A DNA stretch of 64,000 nucleotides from an uncultured Myxococcales bacterium (GCA_964545715.1 CAZJHX010000029.1:6215-70214); one strand, 5' to 3'. Shown: positions 3,163 through 46,100, counted from the stretch's first letter. Notes: a model not told the origin generated them from the sequence alone. Made by a program: numbers and translations.

Positions 3163-4197
3163 TCAAGGACAGGCGAGGGCCACTGAGAAGCTGGCGGTAA
3201 AGCCCGCTTTAGTGTCGACGACAAGCTGGTAACTGCGACCCTCGACAGCGTCAAAGGTGACCGTTCCATCCTCGGCCGCGGCCACACATTTGGTCGGGTC
3301 GCAGCCGAAATCGGCGTCCAATACAAAGATGGCATCGTCGGCGCCGCCCACCGTCGCGCTGACGGCCCCCGTGACCGGCGACGTAAACAGGAACGCGCGC
3401 TCCGGGCCGGTGTATCCGCTCTGCCCGCAGCCGTAGTCGCTGACCTGCTGCGTCTGCCCCGGCGTGTCCAGCGCCACGAGCAGGTTGTCCCCGCACGAGA
3501 CGGACGCCTGCTCCTTGCACTGCGCGGCTTTGATCTCCAGATCGCCACAGTCCAGCGTCAGGTCGAACGTACCCTTCGCACCCAGATAGCCGTCCACGAT
3601 CAGGTAGGCCACATCACCGCTGGCGACCTCGAACTTGCCGCCCTCGGCCGGTCCCCACAGCAGACACTGGTCCAGGTCGCAGCCGTCCTCGGCCGCCGCC
3701 AGTACATGCAGGTCCAGCGTGTCGCCGCCGGTCTCCAGCAGGACCTTGGCTTTACCCTCGCCAGGCGCCGTGAATACGAACGCGATCTCGGGCCCCGGAT
3801 AGGAGAAGGTGCTGCACTGCGTCTGGTCGACCACCTGCCCCGTCGCCGACGCTTTGGTCCCCAGCGAAAACGACTCGCCGCACTCGATGGGTACGGCCTC
3901 CCCACAGGCGCCCGCCGCAACGGTCTCCAGCACGGGTGGCGGCGGCACATCCTCAAGCGGCGTCAGATCGGGTCCCGAATCGACGAAGACGTCCGGCGGC
4001 TCGACATCCGCGGGCCCGGCGTCCGGCGGCTCAACGTCCGGCGTCGGCGTGTCCTGAGGCTGCGCCGCATCCACGGTGTCGGCGGCGGACTCGGCGTCCT
4101 CCACCTCCATCCCGTCCACGGGCTCGACCACGTCGACCGGATCGGTCTGTTCGGACGTGCACGCCACCAACAGCAGGGCCACGAGCAGGCCCCTCAC
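3163..4197 (-). CDS. Secreted lipoprotein with two tandem Cys-containing beta-sandwich (pre-peptidase C-terminal/PPC-like) domains, 344 aa
   Basis: GTG start at 4197 overlapping moeA stop (GTGA). N-term MRGLLVALLLVACTSEQ is a lipoprotein signal (lipobox LLVAC). An acidic Pro-rich spacer (DVEPPDAGPADVEPPDVF) is followed by two homologous ~95-aa segments (CSTFSYPGPEIAFVFTAPGEGKAKVLLETGGDTLDLHVLAAAEDGCDLDQCLLWGP... and YGCGQSGYTGPERAFLFTSPVTGAVSATVGGADDAIFVLDADFGCDPTKCVAAAEDG...), each ending with LTLDC/VALAC. TGA stop at 3163..3165. Confidence 0.55.
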   Translation of the reverse strand: MRGLLVALLLVACTSEQTDPVDVVEPVDGMEVEDAESAADTVDAAQPQDTPTPDVEPPDAGPADVEPPDVFVDSGPDLTPLEDVPPPPVLETVAAGACGEAVPIECGESFSLGTKASATGQVVDQTQCSTFSYPGPEIAFVFTAPGEGKAKVLLETGGDTLDLHVLAAAEDGCDLDQCLLWGPAEGGKFEVASGDVAYLIVDGYLGAKGTFDLTLDCGDLEIKAAQCKEQASVSCGDNLLVALDTPGQTQQVSDYGCGQSGYTGPERAFLFTSPVTGAVSATVGGADDAIFVLDADFGCDPTKCVAAAEDGTVTFDAVEGRSYQLVVDTKAGFTASFSVALACP

Positions 4198-19100: not shown

Positions 19101-22100
19101 CTGCGACGACGCGGATGAGCAGGTACGAGAGGCTGCGGCAAGTGGCCTGGGGTGGCTCGACACCCCGCCAATCAAGCGCCTGGGCGCCATGCTGACCGGC
19201 GACACGTCGGCAACCGTGCGCGCGGCCGCATCCGAGGCCCTGGCGCGCAGCGGAAAGCCGGCGGTGCCGCTGCTGATCAGCGCCCTGACCGACGAGGACG
19301 AGACCGTGCGCGCCTCCGCGGCCGCGGCCCTGGGCCAGGCGTCGGCCGGCAAAGCCGACAAGCCGGTGGTCAACGGACTGATCGGCGCGCTGGGCGATCG
19401 CTACTCCGAGGTCCGCGAAGCCGCTTTGGCCGCCCTGGCCGCGACCGGGTGGACACCCGAGGGTGTGCTCGCGCAAGCGCTCGTGGCGCTGGCCCGCGAG
19501 GACTGGACGCAGCTTGGACGCCTGGGCGCGGAGTCGGTGCCGCTGCTGGGCCGCGTTCTCAATGAGCGCGGCAAGGACGGCCCAAGCGTCGATCGGCGGG
19601 TCGGCGCGCTGGCGGCCCTCTCTGAGATCGGCACCGCGGACGCGATCGCAGCAGTGCAGAGCGCGCTGGACGACGTCGCCGGCCCCGTGGTGGGCGAGGC
19701 GGCACGCGCGATCGGACGACACGCGCAACACGCCTCGGCGGATGCGCTTCCGCGGCTTCGGTCGCTGCTGGCGGACGACCCGCGGTCCAAAGTGCGCGTG
19801 CAGGCGGCCACCGCGCTGGGCATGATGGGCGACCGGGAGGCCGTGAACCTGCTGCATGCGGCAGCCAAGGGCGATGCGGCCGACACCGTGCGCCTTGCGG
19901 CCGCAACCGCGCTGGCGAACCCGGCCATTCAGGTGATCGACTTCCTGATCGGACGCCTGACCGACCCCGATCCGGCCATTCGCGCCGCGGCGGCCGAGGC
20001 GTTGGGCAAGAGCGAGAGCGAGGAGGCGATCGACCCGCTGGTCGGCGCGCTCGGCGATGCGGTGTCGCTCGTCCGCACGACAGCGGCGGCCGGCCTCGAG
20101 ACGCTGGGCTGGATCCCGATCGGCGTTCGCGGCGACGTGGCCGAGACCGGCTACTCGCGCTGGCTGACCCGGGCGGAGCTCTCGGAGCGACACCCCAAGC
20201 TGGCGGACCAGCTGTCGATGCTGCGCGCCGAGCTGAGCGCGGCCGACGCGACAATGCGGCGCTGCTCGCTCGAGGCGATCGCGCGCGGCCGGGACGAGGG
20301 CTCACTATCCGGCGTAACGCCGCTGCTGGATGACGTCGATGTGCACGTCCGGCGGGAGGCGGCACAGACACTCGAGGTGCTGGACGCGCTGCCGAGCACA
20401 GGCACGCTGGGCGCGCTGGCGCTGACCGCGCTGGGTCGCATGGACGATGCGGCAGGGCTGGACGCCTCCGCGCTGCGGGGTTTGAGCCGGGCGATCGTTG
20501 AGCACACGTTGTCCGAACGCGAGGCGGCCGCCCGAGCGCTGGCGACGCTGTCGGTCGACGGTGTGGTCGCGGGGCTGATCCCGGGGACGAGCGACGCGGC
20601 CCCGTCCATGCGCGCCACGGCGGCCCGGGCCCTGGGCGACGTGATCGCACGCGGCAAAGCCGACGACGACGGCATCACCGCGTTGGTTTCGACGCTGGCG
20701 GACCGCGAGTCCGCGGTACGGCGGGAGGCGGCTCGGGCGCTGGCCCGCTGCCACGACGCCGGCGTCAACGCGCTGGCGGGTGCTTGCAAAGCGGAGGCGG
20801 CCATCGTCCGCGCCGCGGCCGCGGGTGGGCTGGGCGAGGCCGGCGACGAGGCGCATGCCGGCGCGTTGATCGCGCTTCTGATCGGCTCGGAGGAGCCCGA
20901 TGAGAGCGTTCGTCTGGCGGCCGCGCGAGCCTTGGGCCGGCTGTCGGCAGCAGTGGCGGACGCCCTGATCGAGGGCCTGGCGTCCGACACCGACGAGGGC
21001 GTGCGCGCCACCTGCGCCACCTCGTTGGCCGAGATCGGCGCCGCGGACCCCGCGATCAACCCGCTGATCGCGGCGCTCGGCGACCGCTACTCCGAGGTTC
21101 GCGAGGCGGCGATCGAGGCGCTGGAGATCCTCGGCTGGACGCCCGAGGATGCGGTCAGTGAGGCGCTGGTGGCGCTGGCGGCCGAAGACTGGTTTGCGCT
21201 CGGCGCGTTAGGTGAGGTCGCGGTGCCGATGCTGGCGCGCGTCGTCGCTGAGGCCGGCGCGGACCGGCCCAGCGTGGATCGCCGCGCCGGGGCCGTTGTG
21301 GCGCTGGACGAGATCGGCGGCACCGGGGCGGTCGCCGCCATCGAGCGTGGTCTGGGCGACGTCTCCGGATTGGTACTGCTGCTGGCGGCGCGGGCGATCG
21401 GGCGCCACACCGACCTGGCCAGCGCGGCCGTTCGACCGCGACTGCGCACATTGTTGGCGGACGATCCGCGACCAGAGGTCCGGGTTGAGGCGGCCATCGC
21501 GCTCGGCATGTTGGGCGACGAGGACGCGATCAACCTGCTGCATGACAAGGCGGTGGCGGACGACAACGCTCAGGTCCGGCTGGCTGCGGCCACCGCGCTG
21601 GCCAACCCGGCGATCAACAACATCGACTTCCTGATCGAGCAGCTCGCGTCGCCCAGCGCAGAGACCCGGGCAGCGGCGGCGGAGGCCCTGGGCGACAGCG
21701 AGAACACGAACGCGATCGACCCGCTGATCGGCGCCCAGGGCGACACGTCGTCACTTGTCCGGCTGCGCGCTGAGGCCGCCCTGCGCAACCTGGGGTGGAC
21801 CCCGGTTGGCGAGCGCGCAACCCCGGCCGACATCGGCTACTCGCGCTGGCTGACCCGCTCTGAGTTGATCGGGCGCCACGGGCCGGCGCAGTCCCAACTG
21901 GATCTGCTGGTCGAGGAGCTGAAGGGCCCCCTGGCGGCCGGTCGACGCTCGGCGCTGGAGGCGCTGGCTCGCGCGCGCGCCTTGGACGCCGAAGCCAATG
22001 TGCTGCCGCTGCTGGACGATCCCGATCGGTACGTTCGACGAGAGGCCGCGGAGACGCTGACGATTCTGGATGCGCTGCCGCAGGCGCCCGATGAGTTCAT

Positions 22101-25100
22101 CGGCATCTCCGCGCCCGTCGAGGAGAAGCCGGCTCCGGCGAAGGACAAGCCGTCCAAGAAAGCTGAGAAGCCCGAGGTCGAGTCGGAGGCGGCAGAGGCA
22201 GAGGCGGTCCCGGTGGCGGAGCCGGATCCAGGCCCGGACGCGGCGACCCGGGCGGCGCTGGCGATGGTCGCGCTGGGCCGCATGGATGATGCCGGCGCGA
22301 TCGGCGTGCCGTCGGTGGGTCCGCTGGTACGCGCCGTCGCGGAGCACGATGAGTTTGAGCGACAGCTGGCCGCGCAGGCGCTGGGCACGCTGGCGCATCG
22401 TCTGTTGGATGGTGTCGGCAACGATGTCGATACGGCCACGCCGGTCCTGACCGAGATCGCCGCGGGTCTGGCGGTGGGCGTGACCGACGCCGCCGCCGCA
22501 GTGCGCCTGGCCAGCGCTCTGGCTTTGGGCCGCCTCACGCACGCGCAGCACGCGACCGATGCCCTTGTGACCGGCCTCGGGGACGGCGATGCGCTGGTGC
22601 GGCAACAGGCCGCAACGTCGCTGACCCAGCTCGGAGCGTCCGGGGGCGACGCCCTGAACGGCTGCCTGGACAGCGACGCGGCCTGGGTGCGCGAGGCGGC
22701 GCTGGGCGGCCTGCATTTGATAGCAGAGGTCGCCGACGCGGAGGCGGTCGCCCGCCTGCTGCGAGCGGATCCGGTCACCGCTGTGCGCGCAGCCGCAGCG
22801 ACCACGCTGGGCGCCTGCGGAGCGGGCGGCGCAGAGCACCTGACCGCAGCATTGAGCGCCGATCACGACCCCATCGTTCGGGCCACCGCGGCGGTCGCGC
22901 TGGCTGACTGTGTCGCGGACGATACCGGCGCAACGGCAGCGGCGCAGAAGGCGCTGATCGGCGCGCTGGGCGACCGGTTCGGACGAGTCCGTACCGCCGT
23001 ACTCCAGTCACTGCACGCTATCGGCTGGGAGCCGGAGGGCCCGATGGCCGAGGCGCTCGTCGCCCTGGCGCAGCAGGACTGGCAGACCCTGGGTACGTTG
23101 GGCGATGCCGCCATCCCGATGCTGGCGCCGGTAGTCGCCGAGCGGGGCGCGGACATGCCGAGCATGGACCGGCGCATTGGCGCGCTTCGAGCGCTGGCGC
23201 AGATCGGCGGTGGCCAGACCGCGACGGCGCTGGAGCAGGGCTTGAGCGACGAGCAGGCGCTGGTCCGGGTGGCGGCGGCCAAAGCGATCGCCTGGCGCCA
23301 TACACACGCCGCCCCATCCGCGCGTCCAACGCTGCGTGAGCTGCTGGTCTCGGACCCGATCTCGCTGGTTCGGGTCGCGGCGGCGACCGCGCTCGGCGCG
23401 CTGGGCGACAACGACGCCGTGGGCATCCTGCGCGCGGCGGCAGAGGGCGACCGGGATGTCACCGTGCGCTTCGCGGCGGCCGAGGCGCTGGCGTCACCCG
23501 CTATCCGCGAGACGTCTTTCTTGTGCGAGCGATTGGGCGATCCGGAGGCGGCGGCCCGTGCGGCGGCTGCCGAGGCGCTGGGCAAGAGCGACGACCCGAC
23601 AGCGATCGACCCGCTGATCGGCGCCCTCGGGGACGCGGTTGCGGTCGTCCGCGATGCGGCGCAGCGCGCCCTTGAGACGCTGGGCTGGATGCCGCTCGGC
23701 GTTCGCGCGGATGTCGCACACGGCAGCTACTCCCGCTGGGCCCTGCGCGGCGAGCTGGAGCAGCGCACGGGCGTCGGCGACGATCAAAGAAAGGCGCTGG
23801 CGGTGGACATGCGCTCGGACGACGCGGCGATCCGGCGCTGCGCTGTCGAGGCGTTGGGCCGGTGGAAGGACCCCGCGCAGGCCAAGCTGCTGGTGCCGCT
23901 GCTGGACGACTCCAGCCGGTTCGTACGCGCGGAGGCCGCCGTCTCACTGGCGCTGATCAATGCGCTGCCCACTGAGGGCCGCGATGGGGCGCTGGCCTGT
24001 GTCGCCCAGGGCCGGATGAGCGACGCAGCCGCGCTAGGTAGTGTCGCCGGCAAGGCCTTGTCGCGCGCGGTCGTGGAGCACGCCCTCGATGAGCGGGTCG
24101 CAGCGGCCGGCGCGCTGGCCTCGCTGACGGCAAAAGACGGACAGGAGGCGCTGGCTTCAGCCCTGGGAGACGAGGTCGCAGTCGTTCGGTTGACCGCGGC
24201 GGACGCGCTGGGAGCGCTGAAGGCCGGCGTGGACGCGCTGAGCGCCGCGCTGGTAGATCCGGCAGCCAATGTCCGACGAGCTACCGGGGCCGCCCTGGCC
24301 GCCTGCGAAAAGGCCGGACTCAAGGCGCTGATCGCTGCGTGCGGACACGACGATCCCAACGCACGCCAAGCAGCGTGTCACGGTCTGGGCGCCACGACGG
24401 GCGGCGGGCAAGCGCTGGCGTCGGTACTGACGGGCGATACCGTGCCGCGGGTGCGCCTGGCAGCGGCCGTGGCGCTGGGCCGGGCCGTGGATGCCAAGAC
24501 CGGGGCGCCGGCGTTGGTGAGCGCGCTGAACAACGACAGCGCCAGCGCCGTTCGCGAGGCGGCTGCGCGAGCACTGGCGGCCTACGACCAGAAGGCGGCG
24601 CAGGACCCGCTGATCGCGTCGCTCGGCGACCCGTCCACAACGGTCAGGCAGACCGCGCTGGACGCGCTGGCGACACTGGGTTGGACCCCCGAGGACGACC
24701 TGGCCGCCGCCGTAGTTGCGCTCGCGCAGGAGAGCTGGCGCGCGCTGGGTGCGCTGGGCGAGATCGCGGTCCCGATGCTGGCGCGGGTCGTCGAAGAGAC
24801 CGGAACCGACATCGGCGGCGTCGACCGCCGGGTGGGCGCGCTCTCGGCGCTGGCGCGGATTGGGACGCCCGCGGCCGTCGCGGCGGCCGAGGCCGGACTA
24901 AAGGACATCGCGGGTCCGGCGCTGGGAGAGGCCGCCCGAGCGATGGGGCGATGCCGAGACCATGTCAGCACCGACGCGCTGCCGCGATTGCGCGCGCTGC
25001 TGAGCGACCCGCGAACCAACGTGCGGGTGGAAGCGGCCGTCGCGCTGGGGCAAATCGGCGACGCGGACGCCGTCGCGGCGCTCTCGACCTTGTGCGTGGA

Positions 25101-28100
25101 CGATCCCGAGGTGGATGTGCGCTTCGCCGCGTCGACCGCGCTTGCGAGCCCACGCCTGAAGCAGACGGGCTTCCTGGTCGACCAGCTGTCGTCGGCGGAC
25201 GACGCGGTGCGGGCAGCCGCGTGCCACGCGCTCGGGGCCAGCGAAGATCCCGAGGTGATCGACCCGCTGATCGGCGCGCTGGGCGACGCGGTCGCCGGCG
25301 TACGCGCCGCAGCAACACGCGCGGTCGAGCAGCTGGGATGGACGCCCATCGGCGTGCGACCGACGCCGGAGCACGTCGGGTACTCCCGCTGGCTGCTGCG
25401 GTCGGAGCTGCGGAGCAAGCACGGCGACAAGCCCCAGGTGGAGTTGCTGGCGCTGGAGCTGAACGACCCGGATCCCGCCGCAAGGCGGTCGGCCCTGGAG
25501 GCGCTCGGGCGGGCGGGAGCGCACGAAACAGAGGCGCTGATCCTGGCGCTGCTGGACGATCCGAACCGGTACGTGCGCACCCAGGCAGCGCATGCGCTGG
25601 CCAGCCTGGACCGCGCGCCGGCCGTCCCTGCCGACTTCCTCGGGGTGGCGCCGGCGGCCGATGAGCCGGACAAGAAGAAGAAGAAGAAGAAGAAGAAGGG
25701 CAAGAAGGACGAGCCACCGCCCGAGGTGGCGGGACCGCCGCAGGCAGCCATCGACGCCGCGCTGAGCCTTGTCGCGACAGGCCGAATGAGCGAAGCCGCG
25801 CGCCTGGGGATCGTGGCGATCGGGCCGCTGGCCAGAGCGCTGGCGGAGCACACGAGCGACCAGCGCCTGAATGCGGCCGTCGCGCTGGGTGAGCTGGCGC
25901 TGCGGATCCGGACAGACGCGGGAGCGGACGGGGCGGAGGCAGCCGCGCCGGTCCTGTCAGAGATCGCAACTGGACTGCAGGCTGGGCTCGCAGACGACCA
26001 GCTTGAGGTGCGGGTCGCCACCGCCGCGGCGCTCGGCCAGGCAGGCCCGACGCCGGCCGCCACAAAGGCGCTGACCGGCGGATTGGCCGACGGCGAGCAG
26101 GCGGTGCGAGCGGAGAGCGCGCGTGCCCTGGCCGGCCTCGGCGGCGCAGGCGCCGAGGCGCTCACCGCATGCCTGGATGATGCGAACGCCCGTGTACGTG
26201 AGGCGGCGGTCCACGGGCTGGATGCTCAGGGCGGCGAGCTGGACGGCGCTCGGCTCACACAGCTGCTGGCGTCGGACGACAGCGCGCTGGTCCGGGTGGC
26301 TGCAGCCCAGGCGTTGGCGGGCCTACCGTCCGCGGCCGAGCCGCTGATCACGGCGCTGGCCGGGGATCCCCATGAGCTGGTGCGTGCTGCCGCCGCCACA
26401 TCGCTTGCCGCGCACAAAGCGGGAGACGCCGGACAAAACGCGCTGCTGGGCGCCCTGGCCGACCGCTATTCTGAGGTCCGAGAGGCCGCCCTGGGCGGGT
26501 TGGAGGCGACCGGCTGGCGCGCCGAGGGTCCGATCGCCGAGGCGATGGTGGCGCTGGCCGCTGAGAGCTGGCGCGCGCTGGCGAGCCTGGGAGAGACGGC
26601 GCTGCCGATGCTGGCGCAGGTCGTGGGGGAGCGCGGAGCAGAGGCTCCCGATGTCGAGCGCCGCATCGGGGCGCTGCGCGCGCTGGCGGAGATCGACGGC
26701 GGCGCGGCGATGGCGATCGTCGAGCGCGGCCTGTCGGATGAGCACGCCCGAGGCCGAGCGGCGGCGGCCAAGGGCATTGCGTGGCGTCATGCGGCCACGC
26801 CGGCGTCGGCATGTGGCGTGCTTCGGGAGCTGCTCTCCTCCGACTCCAACGCGGGTGTGCGGATCGCCGCGGCGACCGCGCTGGGCGCCCTGGGCGACAA
26901 AGAGGCTGTCGGGCTGCTGAGAACAGCCGCGGAGCACGATCGCGACCCGACGGTCCGCTTCGCTGCGGCCGAGGCGCTGGCATCACCCGCTATCAAAGAG
27001 ACGTCCTTCCTCATCGGCAGACTCAGCGACGCCGACGGCGCCGTCCGTGCAGCGGCGGCCGAGGCGCTGGGCAAGTCGGATGACGTCGAGGCGATCGACC
27101 CGCTGATCGGCGCGCTGGGCGACGCGGTCGCGATCGTGCGCGACGCGGCGCAGCGGTCGCTACAACAGCTTGGCTGGGTGCCGTTGGGCGTCTTCGGAGA
27201 CCTGGCGGACACCGGCTTCGCGCGCTGGGCCACGCGCGCCGAGGTCGCGGCGCGGACGGGCGTCACCGGCGACCAGAAGAAGGCGCTGACCGCAGACTTG
27301 AAGGACTCGCAGGCGCTGATCCGGCGTGCCGCTATCCAGGCGATGGGCCGCTGGAAGGACCCTGCGCTTTACGCGGTCGTTCTACCGCTGCTGGACGACG
27401 CGGATCATCACGTCCGAGCGGAGGCCGCGGAGGCGCTCCCGCTGTTGGGCGAGCCGCCGGAGAGCGGACGGGACGGCGCGCTGCGGCTGGTGGCGCTGGG
27501 ACGCATGGCAGAGGCGGCAGCTCTGGGCGACATCTCAGCGCCGGGTCTGGCGCGCGCGCTGCAGGAGAACCTGGAGCCCGAGCGGGCGGCCGCCGCGGAG
27601 GCATTGGGTGGCCTCTCGGCCAAGACGTCGACGGCCCCCCTGAGCGCTGCGCTGGCCGACGCGTCGTCGGCCGTTCGGCTGGCGGCGGCCCAGGCGCTGG
27701 GACAGTTGAAGACGGGAGTCGACGCCCTGGCCGGTGCGCTGGGTGACACCGGCGCCGACGTCCGGACAGCCGCTGCTCTGGCCCTTGCACAGTGCGGCAA
27801 GGACGGCGCACAGGCGCTGGCGAAGGGGTGTGCCGCGACGGACGCCGCGCTCAGAGCAGCCGCATGCGTCGGGTTGGGCGCTACCGCGGACGCGAAGCAC
27901 GCCGGCACGCTGGCGACCCGGCTCGGCGACGATACCGACAAGGCGGTTCGAGAGGCTGCCGCCAACGCGCTGGCCGCGTGCGTCGACGCCAAGACCGGCG
28001 CCGCCGCGCTTGCGAAGGCGTTGGATGCAGATGAGAGCGCCACCGTACGCAATGCGGCCGCGCGAGCGCTGGGCGCGTACCCGGCCAAGGCGGCGCAGGA

Positions 28101-37100: not shown

Positions 37101-40100
37101 CTCGCTGGCGCAGATCGGATGGCGGCCGGAGGGCGTGATGGCCGAGGCCCTGGTGCTGCTCGCCCGGCAGGACTTCCGCGGGCTGGGTGGGCTGGGCAAA
37201 CCGGCAACGCCGCTGCTGGTCGGCGTGGTCCGCGAGAGAGGGTCGGACCCCGCGAGCCTGGAGCGGCGGACCGGGGCGATCGATGCGCTCAGCCGGATCA
37301 GCGGCCCGGACACGGTGGCGGCGATCGAGAGCGCGCTGGCCGACGAGCACGCGCTGGTGCGCGCGGCGGCGGCGAAAGCCATCGGCCGCAGACACGCCGA
37401 TGCCGCACCCTCGGCCCGACCGATTCTGAGGGCGCTGCTGGCCAATGATGGCGTTGCCGGGGTGCGTATCGCTGCCGCCCTCGCGCTGGGGCTGCTGGGC
37501 GACATGGACGCGGTGACCCTGCTGCGCAATGCCGCCGAGCAGGACCGTGACGTGACCGTGCGCTTCGCCGCAGCGGAGGCGCTGGCGTCGCCGGCCATCA
37601 AGGAGACCACGTACCTGATCGCCAGCCTGAGCGACCCGGTCGCCGGACGGCGGGCGGCGGCCGCAGAGGCGCTGGGCGACAGCACCGACACCAGCGCGAT
37701 CGACCCGCTGATCATCGCGCTGGGCGACGCGGATGCCGGCGTACGCGACGCGGCGCAGCGCGCGCTGGAGAAGCTTGGGTGGATGCCACTGGGTGTTCGG
37801 GCCGATGTGGCTGATACCGGATATGCGCAGTGGGCTTCGCGCGCCGCTATCGAGGCACGGACCGGGACGAGCAACGACCAGAAGAAGGCGCTGGCCCTGG
37901 AGGTCAAGAGCACGGACGCCGCGGCACGGCGCTGCGCGCTGGAGGCGCTGGGGCGCTGGAAGGACGCGGCGCTCTACGACGTGGTTGTGCCGCTGCTGGA
38001 CGACGCCAACCGCCATGTCCGCGCAGAGGCGGCCATCGCGCTGGGCCTGCTGGGCGGTGCGCCGACGACGGGCGCCAACGGCGCGCTGGCGCTGGTGGCG
38101 ATGGGACGGATGCGCGAGGCGGCCGCACTTGGCGACGTCGCCGGACCAGCCTTGTCACGCGCAACTCGCGAACATCGGCTGGCCGAGCGCACGGCGGCCG
38201 CTCAGGCGCTGGGCGTGCTGAGCGCAGCCGTCGCCGAGGCGGCGCTGTGTGAGGCCATCGCGGATGATGTCGCCGAGGTGCGGCTGACCGCGGCCAGCTC
38301 GCTGGCACGGATAGGCGCCGGCGTGCCTGCGCTGTCGACCGCGCTGACCGACAGCGTTCGGCAGGTCCGATGCGCTGCTGCGGCGGCGCTGGCGCGTTGC
38401 GGCAAGGATGGCGCGGTCGCTCTCATCGGTCTGTGTGGTGCACCGACGGCTGAGGCTCGTGAGGCGGCCTGCCTCGGCCTGAGCACGGTAGATGACGCAA
38501 AAGCGGCCGCTGCGCTGGCGGAGCGGCTGGACCGCGACGACACCGCGATGGTGCGTGTCGCCGCGGCTACCGCATTGGAATCGGCCGGACCGGCGACCCG
38601 GAAAGCTGGCGGCCCGGCGCTGGTGGCGGCCCTGGACTGCGACGAGCACAGCGTGGTCCGCGCGACGGTGGCACGCGCGTTGGTCGCATATGGGGCGGGC
38701 ACGGCGCAGGAGCCGCTGATCCGCGCGCTGGGAGACAGCTCGCGAACCGTGCGCCAGCAGGTGCTGGAAGCCCTGGCGGCGCTGGGCTGGGTGCCGGCGG
38801 ACGACATGGCGACCGCGGTGGTCGCGCTGGCGCGAGAGGACTGGCCGGCGCTGGCCCGCCTCGGTGAGACGGCACTGCCGATGCTGGCGCGAGTCGTGCG
38901 CGAGCGGGGCGGCGACGCCGGCAGCGTGGATCGCCGCGTCGGAGCTGTGAACGCGCTGGCCACCATCGACGAGGCCGCGGCTGTCAGCGCGATCGAGCCC
39001 GCGCTTCAGGACGTGGCGGGGCCGGTCCTGACCGCGGCCGCGCGGGCGATCGGCTTGCGCGCAGCCGCCGCCCCATCCACGGTCATGCCGCCCCTGCGCG
39101 AGCTGCTGGGTGACCCCAGACCCAAGGTGCGCATCGAGGCGGCCGTTGCGCTGGGCCAGCTGGGTGACAGCGACTCAGTGTCCCTGTTGACGGCGCTGGC
39201 CGAGTCCGATCCGTCCGCGGAGGTGCGCCTGGCCGCCGCCGCGGCGCTGGCCAGCCCGCAGCTGAAGCAGACGGGCTTCCTGGTACAGCAGCTGGGTGCG
39301 GCGCAGCCCGATGTTCGCGAGGCGGCCTGCCGCGCACTGGGCGACAGCGAGGATCCGGACGTCATCGACCCGCTGATCGGGGCGCTGGGCGACGCGGTGG
39401 CCGCGGTGCGCGCTGCGGCATCAGCCTCCCTGGAGAAGCTGGGCTGGACGCCGCTGGGCGAGCGCGGCGAGACCGCGGACAGCGGGTACTCCCGGTGGCT
39501 GCTCAAGTCGGAGTTGGAAGCGCTGCACGGCATCGCGGGTCAGCCGCAGATCACGCTGATCGAGGCGCAGCTCGGAGCGGGAGATGCCCAGGCGCGCCGG
39601 TCCGCACTGGAAGCCCTGGCCCGGGCGGGAGCCGTACAGGCCGAGGCGGTGGTGCTCAGACTGCTGGACGATGCGGACGCGCTGGTTCGCCGAGAGGCCG
39701 CGTTGACGCTGGCGGCGCTGGGCCTGTTGCCGCAGGCGCCCGACGGACTGTTCGGGATGCCGCAGCCCGCCGCAGCCGCGGTGGCGGCCCCCGAGCCCGA
39801 GGCGGAGAAACCGGCCAAGGGCAAGAAGGCCAAGGCCAAGAAGGGCAAGAAGGCGGAGCCGGAGCCGGAGCCCGCAGCAGCCGAGCCTGAGGCGCCGGCG
39901 ATCCCGCCGGCCGCCGTGCACGCGTCTCTGGCGCTGGTCGCGCTGGGCCGAATGGATGAGGCAGCCGCGCTTGGTGTACCGGCGCTGGCGCCCCTGGTGC
40001 GCGCCATCCGAGAGCAGGTCCCGGATGAGCGACGCGCCGCGGTAATCGCGCTGGGCTCGTTAGCGACAGCTGTGGTGGAGACAGCCGGCGCGGAAGCCGG

Positions 40101-43100
40101 CGCGGCGCTGTTGGGCCACTGTGCAGATGGGCTGGCTGCCGGCGTTCAGGACGACGACGTAGAGGTCCGTTTGGTGGCCGCTGGCGCCCTGGCGCGCGTG
40201 GGTGGGCTGGAGCAGTCCACGAGCGCACTGGTCGGCGCCCTCGGCGACACCAACGCAGCTGTTCGCGCCAGAGCTGCGGCGTCGTTGGCGACCGCCGGCG
40301 AGCTGGGCGCGGCAGCGCTGAATACGTGCCTGGCGGACGAGACCGCGACCGTCAGGGCGGCGGCTGTGGCGGCGCTGCGAGCCATTCCGGGGCTGGCCTC
40401 GGCGGACGTGGTCGGCGGACTGGTCGCGGGCGACCCCGACAAGTTTGTGCGGCGGACGGCTGCCGCGACGTTGGGCGCGATCGGCGCCGAAGGGACGGAT
40501 GCGTTGGCGCAGGCGCTGCGCCTGGATCCCGATGAAGCCGTGCGGGCCGCTGCAGCCACGGCGCTGGCATCAGCCGCCTCTGACGGCTCCCGGCGGGACG
40601 ACGCTCAGAAGGCGCTGATCAGCGCGCTGGGTGACCGCTTCAACGACGTACGTGACGCGGCGCTGGCGTCGTTGAAGGCCATCGACTGGCGGCCCGAGGG
40701 CGCCATGGCCGAGGCGCTGGTCGCGCTGGCACGCGAGGACTGGCCGGCGCTGGGCGAGCTTGGCGACGTCGGCTTGCCGCTGCTGGTTCGGGTCACGGGT
40801 GAGCAAGGTCTCGATCCGGCCAGCGTCAGCCGCCGCATCGGCGCCTTGAGCGCGCTGGGCGAGGTAGGCGGGGCCGAGGCGACCGCGGCGCTCGAGGCCG
40901 GGTTGAACGACGAGCATGCGATGGGTCGCGCGGCAGCGGCGCGGGGGATTCTGCGTAACCCGAAGACTGCGTCGGCAGACGTCCTGGTGCGCCTGCGCGA
41001 GCTGCTGCAGAGTGACCCCATCGCCAAGGTGCGGGTTGCCGTGGCGATCGCGCTGGGTGTGCTCGGCGACAAGAAAGCGGTTGGGCTGCTGCGGACTGCG
41101 GCCGAGAACGACCCGGATCTAACTGTGCAGTTTGCGGCGGCGGAGGCGCTTGCGTCGCCTGCGATCCGCGAGACCGACTTCCTGACGGAGCGCCTGACCG
41201 ATCCCGACGCGGAGGTGCGCGCGGCGGCCGCAGAGGCGTTGGGTCCCAGTGAGGACCCGAGCGCCGTCGACCCGCTTATCCGGGCGCTGGGCGACGCTGA
41301 CGCGCTGGTCCGAGACGCGGCGCAGCGGTCCCTGGCCATGCTGGGCTGGGTCCCGCTCGGGGTCCGCGCCGAGATCGCCGACGTGGGCTACTCCCGCTGG
41401 GCGACGCGCACCGAGCTGGAGGCCCGAACGGGCGTGGCGGGGGACCAGAAGAAGGCGCTGGCCGTCGACGCCACCAGCGACGACGCGGCCGTGCGCCGTT
41501 GCGCGGCGGAGGCGCTGGGTCGTTGGAAGGACACGGCGCTGTACGACGTCGTGCGGCCGCTTCTGGATGACCCGAACCGCTTCGTGCGGGCCGAGGCAGC
41601 CATCTCGCTGGGCCTGTTGGGCGGCGCACCGACGACAGGTGCGGAGGGCGCGCTGGCGTTTGTCGCTCAGGGCCGGATGGCGGCGGCGGCGGCGCTGGGC
41701 GCGGTGGCGGCGGCACCGCTGGCTCGCGCGGTTCGTGAGCACGCCTTTGATGAGCGGGCTGAGGCGGCCGAGGCGATGGCGGCGTTGGAGCCTAAGGCGG
41801 CCCAGGCCGCGCTGTCGGACGCGCTGGGCGACGACGTGGCGCTGGTGCGGCGTGCGGCGGCGCAGTCGCTGGGCCGGCTGCAGACCGGGATCGATGCGCT
41901 GGCGACCGCCCTTGCCGACAGCGTGTGGGATGTACGCACCTCGGCTGGACGCGCGCTGGCGGCGTGCGGCAAGGCCGGGTTGGCTGCGCTGACAAAAGCG
42001 TGTGAGCGCGACGAGTCCGAGGCCCGCGAGGCGGCGTGCATCGGACTCGGCCACAGCGCCGACGCCAAAGCAGTGGCCCCACTGGCTGCGCGTCTGGCAA
42101 GCGACAGCGTCACGATTGTCCGGCTGGAGGCCGCGATGGGCCTGGGGCAGGCGATCGATGCCAAGGTTGGGGCGGCCGCGCTGGTCAAGGCCCTCGACGC
42201 GGACGCGAGCAGCGCCGTCCGGGCGGCGGTCGCCCGATCGCTGTTGCCGTACGGCGCCAAGGCCGCAGAGACGGCGCTGGTTGGGGCACTGGGCGACCCG
42301 TCACGCACGGTTCGCCAGACCGTCCTCGAGACGCTGGCCGCGTTGGGCTGGACCCCCGCCGACGACATGGCAACCGCAGTGGTCGCGCTGGCGCGGGAAG
42401 ACTGGCCTGCATTGGCGTCGCTGGGCGCCATGGCCGTGCCCATGCTACGGCGCGTGCTGACGGAGACGGGTCGCGACGCCGGCAGCGTGGAGCGGCGCGT
42501 CGGCGCCGTGAGCGCGCTGACGTCGATCGGTGGCAAGGCCGCCGTGAAAGAGCTCACGGGGGCGTTGAACGACCTGGCCGGTCCGGTTCTGGCGCTGGCG
42601 GCGCGGGCCCTGGGCCGGCACGCGGACGACGTCGGAGAGGGCGGCCTGCCACGCCTGCGTGAGCTGCTCGAGGATGCGCGACCCAAGGTGCGGGTCGAAG
42701 CGGCCGTGGCGCTGGGCCAGCTGGGCGACGTCGACAGTGTGCATCGTCTGTCCGAGATCGCGACCGCGGACCCGGACGACGAGGTGCGGCTGGCGGCAGC
42801 CGCGGCGCTGGCCAGCAAGAAGCTGAAAAAGACCGACCTGCTCGTCGGCCAGCTGAGCGCGGCGACAGCGGAGGTGCGTGAAGCCGCGTGCGTGGCGCTC
42901 GGCGAAAGCGAAGACCCGGCCGTCATCGACCCCCTGATAGGCGCGCTGGGTGATGCCGTGGCAGGCGTCCGTGTAGCGGCGGCGGCGGCTCTGAGGGTGC
43001 TGGGTTGGACGCCGCTCGGCCTGCGCGCCGAGGTCGGCGACTCCGGCTACCAACGCTGGGTGCTGAAGTCCGAGCTGGAGACCACCCACGGCGCCGGCAA

Positions 43101-46100
43101 GCCGCAGAGCGCGCTGCTGGCCGGCGAGCTGACCGCGACCGATCCGGGCGCGCGACGGTCGGCGCTGGAGGCGCTGGCCCGCATCGCGGATCCGTCGCAG
43201 GCCCAGTTGATCGTGCCGCTGCTGGACGACCCACATCGCCTGGTTCGCCGTGAGGCTGCAGAGACATTGACGGCGCTCGGGGCGCTGCCCGCGGCATCGG
43301 CGAGCGCAGCGACGGCGCTGGGACACATGGCCGACGCCGCTGCGCTGGGCGCGGACGCGATCGGCGCGCTCGTCCGCGCTCTGTGCGAGCAGACCGTAGT
43401 CGAGCGCCTGGATGCCGCGATGGCGCTGGGCTCGCTGGCGGGTCGCCTGCTGGCGTCCATGCCGCCGATGCCGGTCGCAGCGCCACCGGAGGCGCCGGCA
43501 GAAGATGCGGCGGAGACCGAGCCGCCCAAGAAAAAGAAGAAAGCCAAGAAGAAGCCCAAGAAGAAGCCCAAGAAGAAGGACACGGAAGCGAAGGCCCCAG
43601 AGGCCCCGCCGGAGCCGGAAGATCCCCACGCGGAGCAGCGAGCCGAGATCACCGCCGCGTTGGACGCTATCGCCGCAGGGCTGGCGCGCGGTCTGGCGGA
43701 TAGCGCCCCGGCCGTGCGTGCCGCGAGCGCATCCGCGCTGGGCGCGGTCGGACCGACCGGCGGCGCCGTCGCTGCGCTGGCAGGCGCCCTGGCAGACGTC
43801 GAGCAGATGGTCGCTTTTGCGGCCGGTGCGGCTCTGGGACGGCTCGACGAGGACGGCCGCAGCGCGCTGCGCACAGGCCTGGGCCACACCACCGAGACGG
43901 TTCGCGAGGCCGCGCTGGTCGGGCTGGCGAAGTCGGCCGTCGCGGAGGATATCGACCGCATCGCGGGCCTGCTGGCGTCGGATGAGGACGTGGGCGCGCG
44001 CGCTGCGGCGGCCACGACGCTGGGTGCCCTTGGACCGGCCACAGTGGACGCCCTGGCCACCGCGTTGGGCGGTGACTCGCACGAGCGCGTTCGGACAGCA
44101 GCCGCTGTGGCGCTGAGCCAGGCTGCGGTCGCACCTCCCGCGATCGTCGAGGCGCCCGCCGAAGAGTCGAGCGACGATAAGAAGGACGCCGAGGGAGCGC
44201 CCGCGGACGATTCGGTCGGGACGGCGCGCGACGCCCTGATCTCCGCGCTGGGCGACCGCTTCAGCGAGGTTCGCGAGGCGGCGGTGGCAGCGCTGGAGGC
44301 CATCGGCTGGCGCGCTGAGGGTCCGATCGCCGAGGCGCTCGTCGCGCTGGCGCAGCAGGACTGGACGGCGCTGGGCCGGCTGGGCGAGGCCGCCGTTCCC
44401 TTGCTGGCGCGCGTGACCCACGAGAGCGGCATCGACATCCCGAGTGTACAGCGCCGCGTCGGCGCGCTGACGGCGCTGGCCGAGATCGGCGGCACGGACG
44501 CGGTGGCGGCGATCGAGCACGGTCTCAGCGACGAGCACGGACTGGCGCGGGCACGGGCGACGCGCGGTATCGCTCGACAGCATGAGCTTGCGGCGCCGTC
44601 GGTTCACGGGACGCTGCGCGAGCTGTTGAGTGCGGATCCCGTGGCCCGGGTCCGCATGGGCGCAGCTGTAGCGCTGGGGACGCTGGGCGGTGGCGATTCG
44701 GTCGGAGTGCTGCGGTCGGCGGCTGAGCATGACTCGGACCCGCTGGTGCGGTTCGCGGCCGCGGAGGCCCTGGCGTCGCCCGGCATCCAGGAGACGTCGT
44801 TCTTGATCGAGCGACTGACCGATCCGGACGGTCAGGTGCGCGCTGCGGCAGCGATTGCGCTGGGACCCACACGGGACGTGGACGCCATCGACCCGCTGAT
44901 CGCCGCCATGGGCGATGCGGACGCCATGGTCCGGGATGCGGCACAGCGGGCGCTGGCGGAGCTGGGCTGGATGCCGCTGGGGCAGCGCGCGCACGTCGCA
45001 GACATCGGCTACAGCCGGTGGACGACGCGCGAGGAGCTCTCGAGCCGGACCTCGCAAACCGACCAGAAGGCGGCGCTGTCCGTCGAGCTGACGTCCGAGA
45101 ATGCGGCCGTCCGCCGCTGCGCGCTGGAGACCCTGGGGCGGTGGCGGGATCCGGCCCTGGCTTCGGGGGTGCTCACCCTACTGGATGACCCCGACCGGCA
45201 CGTCCGCACAGAAGCGGCGCAGACGCTGGGCCTGATGGACGCGACGCCCGCCGATGGCGCGAATGGAGCGCTGGCCCTGGTGGCGCTGGGCCGTATGCAG
45301 GAGGCCGCCGCGCTGGGCGATGTCGCCGGACCTGCCCTGTCCCGAGCCGCGCGTGAGCACTCGCCGGCGCAGCGATCGGGCGCGGCCGACTCGTTGGGGG
45401 CCTTGAGCGCCAAAGTCGCTGCCGCCGCACTGAGCGATGCAGTCGCGGACGAAGACGCGGTCGTGCGACTCAGCGCCGCGAGAGCGCTTGGCCGGGTTGG
45501 AGCCGGCGTGGACGCGCTGGCGCGGACGCTGGCGGACGCCGAGCTGGCGGTGCGGTACGAGGCGGCGCGGTCGCTGGCGGCATGCGGCAAGCCCGGCATC
45601 GGCGCTTTGTCCGCTGCATGCGATCACGAGCAGGCGGCAGCACGACAGGCCGCGTGCCTGGGCCTGGGCACAACAGGCGATCCAAAGGTGGCGCCCAGCC
45701 TGGCCGCGCGAGTGACTGGAGACTCGAGCGCAGATGTCCGTTCGGCAGCCGCGGCGGCGCTCGCGGATGCGGTGCATCCCAAGTCGGGCGGACCGGCGCT
45801 GATCACCGCGCTGGACCACGACGATGACAGCGGCGTCCGCTCGGCCGCCGCGCGATCGCTTCTGGCATACGGCCCCACAGTGGCGCAAAAGCCGCTGATC
45901 GCCGCGCTGGGTGACTCGTCACGCGAGGTGCGCCAGACCGCGCTGGACACGCTGGCCGAGCTCGGGTGGACACCGAAAGACGAGCTGGCCACAGCGGTCG
46001 TCGCGCTGGCGCAGGAGAACTGGGCCGCCATGGGCCGTCTCGGCGCGACCGCGGTGCCGATGCTGGCGCGGGTTGTGCGGGAGACCGGCAAGGACGGCGG

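What the first reader, a model, noticed from the sequence alone, without database searches (positions are those of the whole stretch)
22081..43640. Histone-H1-like Lys/Pro/Ala/Glu linkers punctuate seven consecutive central super-repeats and reappear as the C-terminal tail
Linkers sit at equivalent positions of successive units at about 22.1, 25.7, 29.2, 32.7, 36.2, 39.8 and 43.5 kb (spacing 3.5-3.7 kb), plus the tail at 59005-59178. They have the form acidic/Pro-rich arm, K-rich core, Pro/Glu-rich arm, for example PEPETPPEEEAKKPKKGKKAKKAKKAEPAPAEP. The equivalent junctions in the N-terminal units (for example about 18.6 kb) and in later units (about 46.9, 50.3, 53.7, 57.1 kb) lack the basic insert.

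KAKP/AKP-type tracts are the hallmark of histone H1 tails and bacterial H1-like proteins (AlgP/Hc1-type), which bind DNA or other polyanions. Seven evenly spaced polycationic patches on a rigid solenoid would make a multivalent polyanion-binding ruler, for DNA, polyphosphate or RNA. Alternatively they could be flexible hinges or protease-accessible processing sites that cut the megaprotein into modules.
Basis: partly seen in the sequence, partly recalled or inferred. Interest (0 to 1): 0.6.

Follow-up and report, generated by a model that had tools for sequence, protein, structure and literature searches.

The report
Lysine-rich loops in a giant HEAT protein
A 17,353-residue bacterial HEAT-repeat protein carries seven short, disordered, lysine-rich surface loops and a lysine-rich tail; they are real and probably act as electrostatic stickers, but only the tail recurs in related proteins.

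Summary
One ORF (7120-59181, 17,353 aa, Pfam HEAT_2) contains eight Lys-rich low-complexity segments, against 0.3 expected by shuffling.

Three corrections:
- Only linkers 1-6 sit at an equivalent site. They are homologous insertions in one loop of a 570-aa half-unit and were copied along with the ~1,170-aa super-repeat. Linker 7 lies about 60 aa downstream, and the tail sits at a third site.
- The internal linkers are charge-blocked polyampholytes with net charge -7 to +8, not polycations. Only the tail is strongly basic (+20).
- AlphaFold (pLDDT 93, pTM 0.85) shows a continuous solenoid across linker 5. At least that linker is therefore a surface loop, not a hinge.

The tail ends at a TAA that is followed at once, in frame, by a second HEAT gene. 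A basic or Pro/Glu-rich segment at the end of the giant gene recurs in four other Myxococcota-type loci, and three of them keep the downstream gene. No sampled relative has internal linkers.

Every Lys core is its own near-perfect microsatellite. One 24-nt repeat unit of the tail differs between two 99.8%-identical assemblies.

There is no homology to H1, Hc1, AlgP or TonB, only a compositional resemblance. The function is inferred: non-specific electrostatic tethering, most likely to a polyanion.

The parts
7120..59181 (+). Giant ORF of 17,353 aa. It is a cytoplasmic HEAT_2 alpha-solenoid with 24% Ala, net charge -522, no transmembrane segment and no signal peptide.
22081..22251 (+). Linker 1 (site A, aa 4988-5044). 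Weak core KDKPSKKAEK (+3); net charge -7.
25621..25755 (+). Linker 2 (site A, aa 6168-6212). Core K9GKK (+11), encoded by a perfect (AAG)9 at 25672-25698; net charge +3.
29119..29250 (+). Linker 3 (site A, aa 7334-7377). Core KPKKKGKKGTKSEK (+7), with (AAGAAGGGC)2.7; net charge +2.
32620..32757 (+). Linker 4 (site A, aa 8501-8546). Core KPAKGKKGK(TK)5 (+10), with a perfect (CAAGAC)5.5; net charge +8.
36112..36333 (+). Linker 5 (site A, aa 9665-9738). Core KKPKKGKKAKKAKK (+10); net charge 0. AlphaFold models it as a low-confidence loop closed at its base by two short strands, RLIE and MIVD.
39733..39921 (+). Linker 6 (site A, aa 10872-10934). Core KPAKGKKAKAKKGKK (+9); net charge 0.
43456..43641 (+). 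Linker 7 (site B, about 60 aa downstream of site A in a different loop; aa 12113-12174). Core K5AK3PK3PK3 (+14), with (AAGAAGAAGCCC)3.8; net charge +4.
59011..59178 (+). C-terminal tail (site C, aa 17298-17353). A Pro/Ala arm is followed by a 39-aa KA/KP core (+21), encoded by a 24-nt unit x4.9. One unit is present or absent between two near-identical assemblies.
59179..59184 (+). TAA stop directly abutting an in-frame GTG start (TAAGTG). This is the gene split inside a linker-like segment.
59182..63918 (+). Second HEAT gene of 1,578 aa, with the same half-unit repeats and net charge -48. It exists as a separate gene in other lineages.
18613..18672 (+). Site A of an N-terminal unit. It has the same insert skeleton (TPDQWRVLGTPDAETPTLGP) but no Lys core.

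Best explanation
The segments are intrinsically disordered, charge-blocked loop insertions (acidic/Pro arm, poly-Lys core, acidic/Pro arm) on the surface of a giant, very acidic, cytoplasmic HEAT solenoid.

Origin (shown or strongly inferred):
- One insertion arose in a loop that recurs every ~570 aa. It lies between '..L.ALGALP' and 'ALALVALGRM'.
- That insertion was amplified six times together with the ~1,170-aa super-repeat.
- A seventh insertion arose independently in a neighbouring loop.
- The tail sits at the position where related giant HEAT genes also end.
- The Lys cores are continually remade by in-frame microsatellite slippage. Composition and presence persist, but sequence does not.

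Function (inferred, not shown): the Lys cores, above all the +20 tail, act as non-specific electrostatic stickers. They would tether the solenoid multivalently to a polyanion. Nucleoid DNA is the most likely target by analogy with bacterial K/A/P tails; polyphosphate, RNA and anionic membrane remain possible. The flanking acidic arms would damp each single contact, so that only avidity over several loops gives stable binding.
For: Anatomy:
- Eight segments are observed against 0.3 expected.
- They are the only long low-complexity stretches in 17,353 aa, apart from two small non-basic inserts.
- AlphaFold with a paralogue alignment gives pLDDT 93.2 and pTM 0.85. The dip to pLDDT 55-62 falls exactly on the Lys core, and helices continue on both sides. 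The single-sequence run also places coil at aa 9660-9733.

Single origin of linkers 1-6:
- They occupy the same loop, share the preceding aPDxFfG motif and share a K-P-x-K-G-K-K core motif.
- The half-units that follow them form one clade in the neighbour-joining tree.

Age and retention:
- Units are only 66-69% identical in DNA, with no recent conversion tracts, and 53-57% identical in protein.
- All six copies nevertheless keep 6-11 Lys in the insert. The R:K ratio switches from 3.5:1 outside the segments to 1:15 inside, in a 74% GC gene.

Slippage:
- Each core has a distinct repeat unit of 74-100% identity; four of the seven are 90-100%.
- A 24-nt (KAKPKAKP) in-frame indel in the tail is the only indel across 14.8 kb between assemblies that are 99.8% identical.

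Recurrence of the tail in relatives:
- L007 ends ...PSEPEPAP..EPPPEPKKKKKK* at the same structural site.
- L004 ends in a Lys-rich tail of at least 71 aa.
- L056/P0025 ends ..PAEKAPPAKKARRKGG.. and is followed by the second HEAT gene.
- In L003 the short basic patch, MAKKKGK plus a long Pro/Glu arm, sits just after the gene split.

Analogy: AlgP and PhaF have K/A/P repeat C-terminal domains that bind DNA and tether granules to the nucleoid (PMC9239181). Lys-rich PAKKA repeats of M. smegmatis Ku modulate DNA binding (PMC3553676, abstract).
Against: - No binding of any kind was tested.
- The internal linkers have net charge about 0 (-7 to +8), with cores of only 10-19 aa. AlgP has a 154-aa repeat region and net charge +55.
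- The host protein is -522 overall and would repel polyanions.
- No sampled relative carries internal Lys linkers: P0007 (4,673 aa), P0025 (4,363 aa), L006 (at least 4,417 aa), L007 (at least 5,288 aa) and P0001 (2,002 aa). They are therefore dispensable for the family.
- One relative's tail is Pro/Glu/Thr-rich without a Lys run (P0007).
- Perfect microsatellites and a length polymorphism are also what neutral slippage would produce.
- There is no sequence homology to any known DNA- or polyphosphate-binding low-complexity family.
Confidence: 0.4

Rival explanations
1. The internal linkers are tolerated slippage products with no function of their own. An AAG-containing seed in a permissive surface loop expanded, was copied with the super-repeat, and keeps turning over by replication slippage. 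The acidic arms are compensatory changes that keep the local charge neutral. Only the C-terminal tail, if anything, is functional.
For: - Every core is a distinct, near-perfect microsatellite.
- The tail shows a repeat-unit length polymorphism between assemblies that are 99.8% identical.
- Internal linkers are absent from all sampled relatives and from 5 of the 12 same-phase junctions of this very protein.
- Net charge is about 0.
- Linker 1 looks decayed (core +3, net -7), and the J3850 insert has the same skeleton with no Lys at all.
Against: - All six copies kept a Lys core through enough divergence to reach 66-69% DNA identity.
- A shared K-P-x-K-G-K-K motif survives in linkers 3-6.
- Lys is chosen over Arg 15:1 against strong GC pressure.
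- Lys-rich inserts arose at three different sites.
- A basic or Pro/Glu-rich tail recurs across lineages.
Confidence: 0.25
2. The Lys cores bind the protein's own acidic HEAT surfaces, or those of the co-encoded 1,578-aa HEAT partner, either within one molecule or between molecules. This electrostatic 'velcro' would fold, bundle or condense the half-micron-scale solenoid and dock the downstream protein onto the tail. It would resemble the way importin HEAT proteins cradle Lys-rich H1 tails.
For: - The giant protein has net charge -522 and the partner -48.
- A blocky (- + -) charge pattern favours self-association (the link to self-association rests on general polymer physics, which is my own knowledge).
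- The tail sits exactly at the boundary with the tightly coupled partner gene in four lineages.
- HEAT importins bind the highly charged histone H1 through fuzzy interactions (PMC6436938, abstract).
- Structural neighbours include karyopherin-beta2 and importin-beta.
Against: No interaction was modelled or measured. The acidic arms could already neutralise each core locally. Relatives of 4,400-5,300 aa manage without internal cores.
Confidence: 0.2
3. The linkers are flexible hinges or protease-accessible sites that let the megaprotein bend or be cut into ~125-kDa modules.
For: The segments are disordered, Pro-rich and exposed. Lys runs are good substrates for trypsin-like proteases (general knowledge).
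Against: - The model is one rigid body across linker 5 (pTM 0.85).
- The insert lies between two helices of a conserved repeat element, not between domains.
- Cutting a loop would nick the solenoid but not separate it.
- Five later same-phase junctions have no linker.
Confidence: 0.05
4. The effect is at the level of translation or mRNA. Poly-Lys and poly-Pro stretches would slow the ribosome after each super-repeat to aid co-translational folding. The purine-rich tail sequence (AAGGGGAAGAAGAAGTAAGTG) would provide an unstructured, Shine-Dalgarno-like run for re-initiation on the downstream gene.
For: - The cores are local GC troughs (39-58%) in a 74% GC gene.
- PPPP and PP motifs occur in the arms.
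- The stop and start codons abut or overlap in four lineages.
- In L003 and P0015 the basic codons follow the start codon instead.
Against: - AAG:AAA usage is the same inside the linkers (76:16) as outside (307:62), so there is no special codon choice.
- Later units fold without such pauses.
- There are no promoter-like sites at the linkers.
- A 39-aa repeat is far more than a ribosome-binding site needs.
Confidence: 0.05

Closest known systems
AlgP / PhaF KPAA-repeat C-terminal domains (Pseudomonas), described as 'histone H1-like'
   Same: Disordered Lys/Ala/Pro tandem repeats at a C-terminus, built from a short repeat unit and prone to mutation. They are known to bind DNA and to tether polyphosphate or PHA granules to the nucleoid (PMC9239181). 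The window's tail (KAKPKAKP x about 5, net +20) has the same composition.
   Different: AlgP has a 154-aa repeat region and net charge +55 on a small helical protein. Here the tail core is 39 aa and the internal cores are 10-19 aa, flanked by acidic arms, on a 17,353-aa acidic solenoid. There is no sequence-family match.
Eukaryotic linker histone H1 C-terminal domain; chlamydial Hc1/Hc2
   Same: Lys/Ala/Pro-rich disordered polycations. Hc2 varies in length through the copy number of Lys-rich pentamers (PMC2848022, abstract), which parallels the 24-nt unit polymorphism found here.
   Different: There is no winged-helix globular domain and no Hc1 or Linker_histone Pfam match. The segments are internal loops of a HEAT solenoid, not the bulk of a small nucleoid protein.
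Lys-rich PAKKA-type tails of actinobacterial DNA proteins (for example M. smegmatis Ku)
   Same: Lys-rich low-complexity repeats appended to a folded protein in a high-GC organism. They modulate DNA binding (PMC3553676, abstract).
   Different: Those hosts are bona fide DNA-binding proteins. Nothing else in this HEAT protein points to DNA.
Long charged loops inserted in HEAT repeats of karyopherins (for example the acidic H8 loop of karyopherin-beta2; from my own knowledge)
   Same: A disordered, highly charged loop of 45-75 aa emerges between helices of an otherwise continuous HEAT solenoid. Karyopherin-beta2 and importin-beta are among the structural neighbours.
   Different: The karyopherin loops are acidic, single and regulatory. 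Here the cores are basic, repeated seven times, and of slippage origin.
TonB proline-rich spacer, (Glu-Pro)n followed by (Lys-Pro)m (from my own knowledge)
   Same: An acidic-Pro block adjoins a basic-Pro block, suggesting an extended polyproline-like segment. The tail's PAPAPKPAPAPEEP...(KP/KA)n looks alike.
   Different: TonB is membrane-anchored and spans the periplasm. This protein has no transmembrane segment, signal peptide or TonB domain.

Membership tests
HEAT_2 / PBS-lyase-type HEAT repeat proteins (Pfam PF13646, PF03130) | Tandem ~30-aa helix-turn-helix repeats that match the Pfam HEAT_2 model above its gathering score | tested here: met
   HEAT_2 E=1.9e-89 with 14 stretches in one unit, and E=1.9e-111 in the N-terminal 1,000 aa. 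The AlphaFold model is an all-alpha solenoid. Foldseek hits are alphaRep, PP2A PR65 and importins.
Linker histone H1 | Winged-helix globular domain (Pfam Linker_histone) | tested here: not met
   No such match in the scans of a super-repeat unit, the N-terminal 1,000 aa, the linkers or the tail. The remainder of the giant ORF was not scanned.
Linker histone H1 | Long (~100 aa) Lys/Ala/Pro-rich, net strongly basic disordered tail | tested here: inconclusive
   The tail core is 39 aa, about half Lys with Ala and Pro, and net +20. Its composition fits but it is short. The internal linkers have 10-19 aa cores and net charge -7 to +8, which does not fit.
Chlamydial Hc1 (Pfam Hc1) | Match to the Hc1 family model | tested here: not met
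   There is no Pfam hit at E<=10 for seven of the eight segments. Linker 7 has only chance-level hits to unrelated families.
AlgP/PhaF KPAA-repeat domain | Long tandem array of KPAA-type units at the C-terminus, with large net positive charge (+35 to +55) | tested here: inconclusive
   The tail is a tandem array (24-nt unit x4.9) of KA/KP units with net +20. It is four times shorter than the AlgP array (PMC9239181). The internal linkers do not qualify.
AlgP/PhaF KPAA-repeat domain | Binds DNA and/or polyphosphate | not testable with these tools
   This needs EMSA or a polyphosphate pull-down.
TonB proline-rich spacer | N-terminal membrane anchor plus C-terminal TonB domain flanking the EP/KP spacer | tested here: not met
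   The maximum 19-aa Kyte-Doolittle hydropathy is 2.1, so there is no transmembrane segment. No TonB domain appears in the Pfam scans.

The most novel reading that the evidence does not exclude
The protein is a cytoskeleton-scale molecular ruler. About 560 HEAT repeats would extend to roughly half a micron if about 1 nm per repeat is assumed; that figure is my own estimate from known HEAT structures. On this reading the basic loops, spaced about 1,170 aa (some 35 nm) apart, together with the basic tail, clamp it at regular intervals onto the nucleoid or onto polyphosphate. The co-translated 1,578-aa HEAT protein would cap the end. This would be a new kind of bacterial nucleoid- or granule-organising scaffold.
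Probability: 0.1. Interest if true: 0.75.

Novelty: new variant of a known kind. Interest (0 to 1): 0.4.

Why it matters
Lys-rich low-complexity tails are a known way for bacterial proteins to attach to DNA or polyphosphate. Finding them as periodic loop insertions in one of the largest bacterial proteins on record would extend that principle from small nucleoid proteins to a giant scaffold.

The locus also gives a clean natural example of how a disordered insert is born in a repeat loop, amplified by super-repeat duplication, and then maintained by slippage. It shows as well how a gene split can sit inside such a linker.

The practical value is modest until binding is tested. The family has no cultured or characterised member, and the internal linkers are so far unique to this one gene.

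Tried and rejected
- **Pseudogene or readthrough reading of the in-frame TAA.** Rejected as the main reading. Orthologues of the 1,578-aa ORF are separate genes of 1,583-1,683 aa with matching N-termini, and their stop and start codons overlap in other frames (ATGGCTAA, TGATG).\n- **Assembly artefact from collapsed repeats.** Rejected. Units are only 66-69% identical in DNA, and two other assemblies agree with the window to within 1 mismatch in 7.2 kb and 4 in 14.8 kb.\n- **Secreted or membrane-spanning spacer (TonB-like).** Rejected. There is no signal peptide or hydrophobic segment.\n- **Internal promoters at the AT-richer cores.** None found.\n- **Homology of the linkers to any Pfam family.** None found.\n- **Searches that gave little.**\n - The 1,261-aa unit query returned only 6 relatives and did not return the source protein itself. 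The second gave one useful locus.\n - The profile search of 1.84 billion representatives returned mostly generic HEAT proteins from low-GC organisms, whose Lys richness lies within their helices rather than in linkers.\n- **Single-sequence AlphaFold.** Poor (pLDDT 49); only the paralogue-alignment run is used for structure.\n- **Strain comparison of the internal linkers.** I could not reach them in the other two assemblies, because of the 10-kb flank limit and the 5,000-aa look-up limit.

Full report
**What is there**

The window is 62-75% GC over successive 2-kb windows and about 74% within the giant gene. It is dominated by one ORF, 7120-59181 (+), of 17,353 aa. The translation is 24% Ala and reads as HEAT/PBS-lyase-type repeats. 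One super-repeat unit matches Pfam HEAT_2 at E=1.9e-89 and the N-terminal 1,000 aa at 1.9e-111.

The protein has no signal peptide and no hydrophobic segment; the maximum 19-aa hydropathy is 2.1. Its net charge is -522.

The sequence comes from a metagenome. Two other assemblies of the same population exist: ENA SUTE22-1 SAMN10231911 scaffold_2740 and SAMN10231912 scaffold_687. They agree with the window to 1 mismatch in 7.2 kb and 4 mismatches in 14.8 kb. The nearest named relatives are Myxococcota MAG proteins.

Flanking genes appear unrelated. They are a MATE efflux pump, a gp5/VgrG-type OB-fold protein, MoeA, a putative outer-membrane protein, and downstream a BCCT transporter.

**Checking the observation**

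Shuffled sequences give 0.3 on average and 3 at most. Inside these segments Lys is 20.2% (2.2% outside), Pro 18.5% (4.0%) and Arg 1.3% (7.7%).

These are also essentially the only low-complexity stretches in the protein. The exceptions are a 20-aa non-basic insert at 18613-18672 and a 30-aa acidic insert at 44134-44223. Core-to-core spacing is 1,163-1,240 aa.

**Repeat architecture and where the linkers sit**

BLASTP of one unit against the whole protein shows a ~1,135-1,170-aa super-repeat with 51-59% identity among central units. Each super-repeat is made of two ~570-aa half-units that are about 43% identical.

A profile of the motif ALVALGRMxEAAALG finds one copy per half-unit, 27 in a row from aa 3281 into the downstream ORF. 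Aligning all 27 junctions gives the following:
- **Linkers 1-6** are insertions in one and the same loop (site A). The loop lies between '...VRREAAxTLxALGALP' and 'ALALVALGRM', in six consecutive alternate half-units.
- **Linker 7** is not at site A. Its half-unit has the short, uninserted site-A loop, and the Lys-rich insert lies about 60 aa downstream in another loop (site B, '...ALGSLAGRLLAS | insert | AEITAALDAIAAGLARGLAD').
- **The tail** begins about 85 aa after its junction motif, right after a HEAT helix pair (site C, '...VREAACHALADMAKA | TPAPAP...').

So 'equivalent positions' holds for six of seven. The slightly longer last spacing (3,720 nt) reflects the shift.

**Structure**

A single-sequence AlphaFold run was poor (pLDDT 49) but already placed coil at aa 9660-9733 in an otherwise helical chain.

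With an alignment of the 26 paralogous half-unit regions plus four homologues, the model of aa 9435-9954 reaches pLDDT 93.2 and pTM 0.85. It is a continuous alpha-solenoid on both sides of linker 5. The linker dips to pLDDT 55-62 exactly over the Lys core and is closed at its base by two short strands, RLIE and MIVD. A second small beta-hairpin corresponds to the family-specific LGWxPxGV...GYSRW motif.

The high pTM across the insert means the flanks pack as one body. I infer that the linkers are surface loop excursions, not hinges between modules. Foldseek finds only generic HEAT solenoids: alphaRep, PP2A PR65, karyopherin-beta2, importin-beta, SF3B1 and CAND1.

**Charge anatomy**

Each insert has an acidic/Pro left arm, a Lys core and an acidic/Pro right arm.

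| Segment | Core charge | Net charge of whole insert |
|---|---|---|
| Linker 1 | +3 | -7 |
| Linker 2 | +11 | +3 |
| Linker 3 | +7 | +2 |
| Linker 4 | +10 | +8 |
| Linker 5 | +10 | 0 |
| Linker 6 | +9 | 0 |
| Linker 7 | +14 | +4 |
| Tail | +21 | +20 |

The internal cores are 10-19 aa long. The internal linkers are therefore blocky polyampholytes, not polycations. Only the tail (39-aa KA/KP core) is strongly basic.

**Origin and dynamics**

The six site-A inserts are collinear. They share LP-x-APDxFxG, a P/A/E arm, a core containing K-P-x-K-G-K-K, an E/P arm, and then ALALVALGRM. The half-units following them form one clade in a neighbour-joining tree, sister to the units at aa 12056 and 13268.

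The simplest history is one insertion followed by six-fold duplication of the super-repeat. The unit at aa 3850 carries the same skeleton (LPTPDQWRVLGTPDAETPTLG) without any Lys core. Either the skeleton predates the core or the core was lost there.

The duplications are old. Units are 66-69% identical in DNA, and the best short tract is 78% over 121 nt.

The Lys cores look young by contrast. Each is its own near-perfect microsatellite:
- linker 2: (AAG)9, 100% identity
- linker 3: (AAGAAGGGC)2.7, 93% identity
- linker 4: (CAAGAC)5.5, 100% identity
- linker 5: (AAGAAGGCC)4, 74% identity
- linker 6: a 15-mer x2.5, 90% identity
- linker 7: (AAGAAGAAGCCC)3.8, 93% identity
- tail: a 24-mer x4.9, 82% identity

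Comparing the window with scaffold_687 from SAMN10231912 gives 99.81% identity over 14.8 kb, with four substitutions and a single indel. That indel is one 24-nt unit (AAGGCCAAGCCCAAGGCAAAACCA, encoding KAKPKAKP) inside the tail repeat. It explains why that assembly's gene is 17,361 rather than 17,353 aa. This is direct evidence of ongoing in-frame slippage in a Lys core.

Codon choice gives no hint of special selection: AAG:AAA is 76:16 inside the linkers and 307:62 outside.

**The tail is a gene boundary**

The giant ORF ends AAG AAG AAG TAA and is followed immediately by GTG, in the same frame. That GTG opens a 1,578-aa ORF (59182-63918) made of the same half-units. This ORF is a real separate gene. 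P0002 (1,683 aa), P0003 (1,583 aa) and P0008 (1,597 aa) are full-length counterparts with matching N- and C-termini.

The layout of a giant HEAT gene followed by a tightly coupled second HEAT gene recurs in three other loci:
- **L003:** the upstream gene ends ...SPAPATVEPPTGTSNDG*. The genes overlap at ATGGCTAA. The downstream protein starts MAKKKGKDEG followed by a ~90-aa Pro/Glu/Ala arm.
- **L004:** the upstream gene ends in a Lys-rich tail of at least 71 aa, with overlap at TGATG.
- **L056/P0025 (4,363 aa):** it ends ...PEGSAPPEGEAHADPAEKAPPAKKARRKGGDTP* and is followed by the second HEAT gene.

A more distant giant HEAT ORF of at least 5,288 aa (L007, Myxococcales MAG_44) ends '...AASALERVFARV|PSEPEPAPDPEAPPVELAPADVTPEAAPPADEPPPEPKKKKKK*'. 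That is the same structural position as the window's tail. P0007 (4,673 aa) ends in a Pro/Glu/Thr/Gly-rich tail without a Lys run.

A disordered Pro/Glu arm with a basic patch at this boundary thus recurs in most sampled relatives, while its sequence, length and even its side of the gene split vary.

**Internal linkers in relatives**

None was found in P0007, P0025, L006 (at least 4,417 aa), L007 or P0001 (2,002 aa). In the homologues where the site-A loop could be recognised, it is short. An example is P0001: 'LGRLPK|SGPSRSSALVALGRFDEA'.

Sampling is thin and the relatives are distant (at most about 40% identity). The word-indexed search did not even return the source protein, so absence of closer copies is weak evidence. 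On present data the internal linkers are specific to this gene.

**Interpretation**

What is shown:
- The segments are real, disordered, charge-blocked surface loops.
- Six share one origin and one site; two others are independent.
- The cores turn over by slippage.
- The tail marks a recurrent gene split.

What is inferred:
- *Constraint on the internal cores.* Retention of a Lys core in all six old paralogues argues for some constraint on composition. So do a surviving KPxKGKK motif, a 50-fold swing from Arg to Lys against GC pressure, independent gains at three sites, and a tail that recurs across lineages. Continual regeneration by slippage could mimic part of this.
- *Function by analogy.* Characterised bacterial K/A/P tails include AlgP/PhaF, which bind DNA and tether granules to the nucleoid (PMC9239181). 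Another case is Ku, whose PAKKA repeats modulate DNA binding (PMC3553676). On that basis the most likely role is non-specific electrostatic attachment to a polyanion. The tail would be the main sticker and the internal cores weak, avidity-dependent ones.

Confidence is about 0.4 because nothing was measured, the internal linkers are net neutral, and the host protein is extremely acidic.

Rivals:
- neutral slippage debris for the internal linkers (0.25)
- self or partner binding to acidic HEAT surfaces, as importins do with H1 (PMC6436938) (0.2)
- hinge or proteolysis (0.05, disfavoured by the model)
- translational or mRNA-level effects (0.05)

**Comparison with known families**

The host is a member of the HEAT_2 family (tested, met). 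The segments are not members of H1, Hc1, AlgP/PhaF or TonB by any sequence test, and they lack those families' defining domains. The resemblance is compositional. It is good for the tail and poor for the internal linkers. Charged loops inside HEAT repeats have a precedent in karyopherins (my own knowledge), but those are acidic and single.

**Verdict**

The H1-like polyanion-ruler idea remains possible but is weakened for the internal linkers. The hinge and processing idea is unlikely.

I rate this a new variant of a known kind: Lys-rich low-complexity stickers, here as periodic loop inserts in a giant solenoid. Interest is 0.4.

Noticed in passing
window 59179-63918: The giant ORF's TAA stop is followed immediately, in the same frame, by a GTG that opens a 1,578-aa ORF of the same HEAT half-units. 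The two-gene layout, with abutting or overlapping stop and start codons, recurs in three other lineages (L003, L004, L056).
   Followed up: yes
window 59067/59068 versus L002 9863-9886: A 24-nt indel (one KAKPKAKP repeat unit) is the only indel between the window and the SAMN10231912 assembly, which is 99.8% identical. The window is therefore not identical to either public assembly found.
   Followed up: yes
window 7120-59181: At 17,353 aa (17,361 in the other assembly) this is among the largest bacterial proteins. It is pure HEAT repeat, cytoplasmic by prediction, 24% Ala and net charge -522. The half-unit (~570 aa) contains a non-HEAT beta-hairpin motif, LGWxPxGV...GYSRWxTRxEL, that marks this Myxococcota family.
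   Followed up: partly
window 18613-18672: Site A of the unit at aa 3850 has the same insert skeleton as linkers 1-6 (PDxW..LG.PDAET) but no Lys core. It is either a precursor or a decayed copy.
   Followed up: partly
window 44134-44223: A 30-aa acidic Pro/Glu/Asp/Ser-rich insert (PPAIVEAPAEESSDDKKDAEGAPADDSVGT) lies about 170 aa after linker 7. It is the only other sizeable low-complexity insert in the protein.
   Followed up: no
window 2125-3060 (-): An orphan 311-aa gene has a Phage_base_V (gp5/VgrG OB-fold) domain (E=3.6e-17) and a weak DUF2345 match. It lies in a local GC dip (62% versus about 67-74%), between a MATE transporter and a predicted secreted protein. No other contractile-injection genes are visible in the window.
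   Followed up: no
window 3163-4197 (-): A 344-aa protein has a lipoprotein-like N-terminus, a Pro/Asp/Glu-rich linker (PDVEPPDAGPADVEPPDVF) and two similar Cys-containing halves. It has no Pfam match.
   Followed up: no
window 36133-36150 and 36283-36294: AlphaFold pairs RLIE (aa 9675-9678) with MIVD (aa 9725-9728) as a two-stranded ladder that closes the base of linker 5. These extra residues are specific to linker 5.
   Followed up: no
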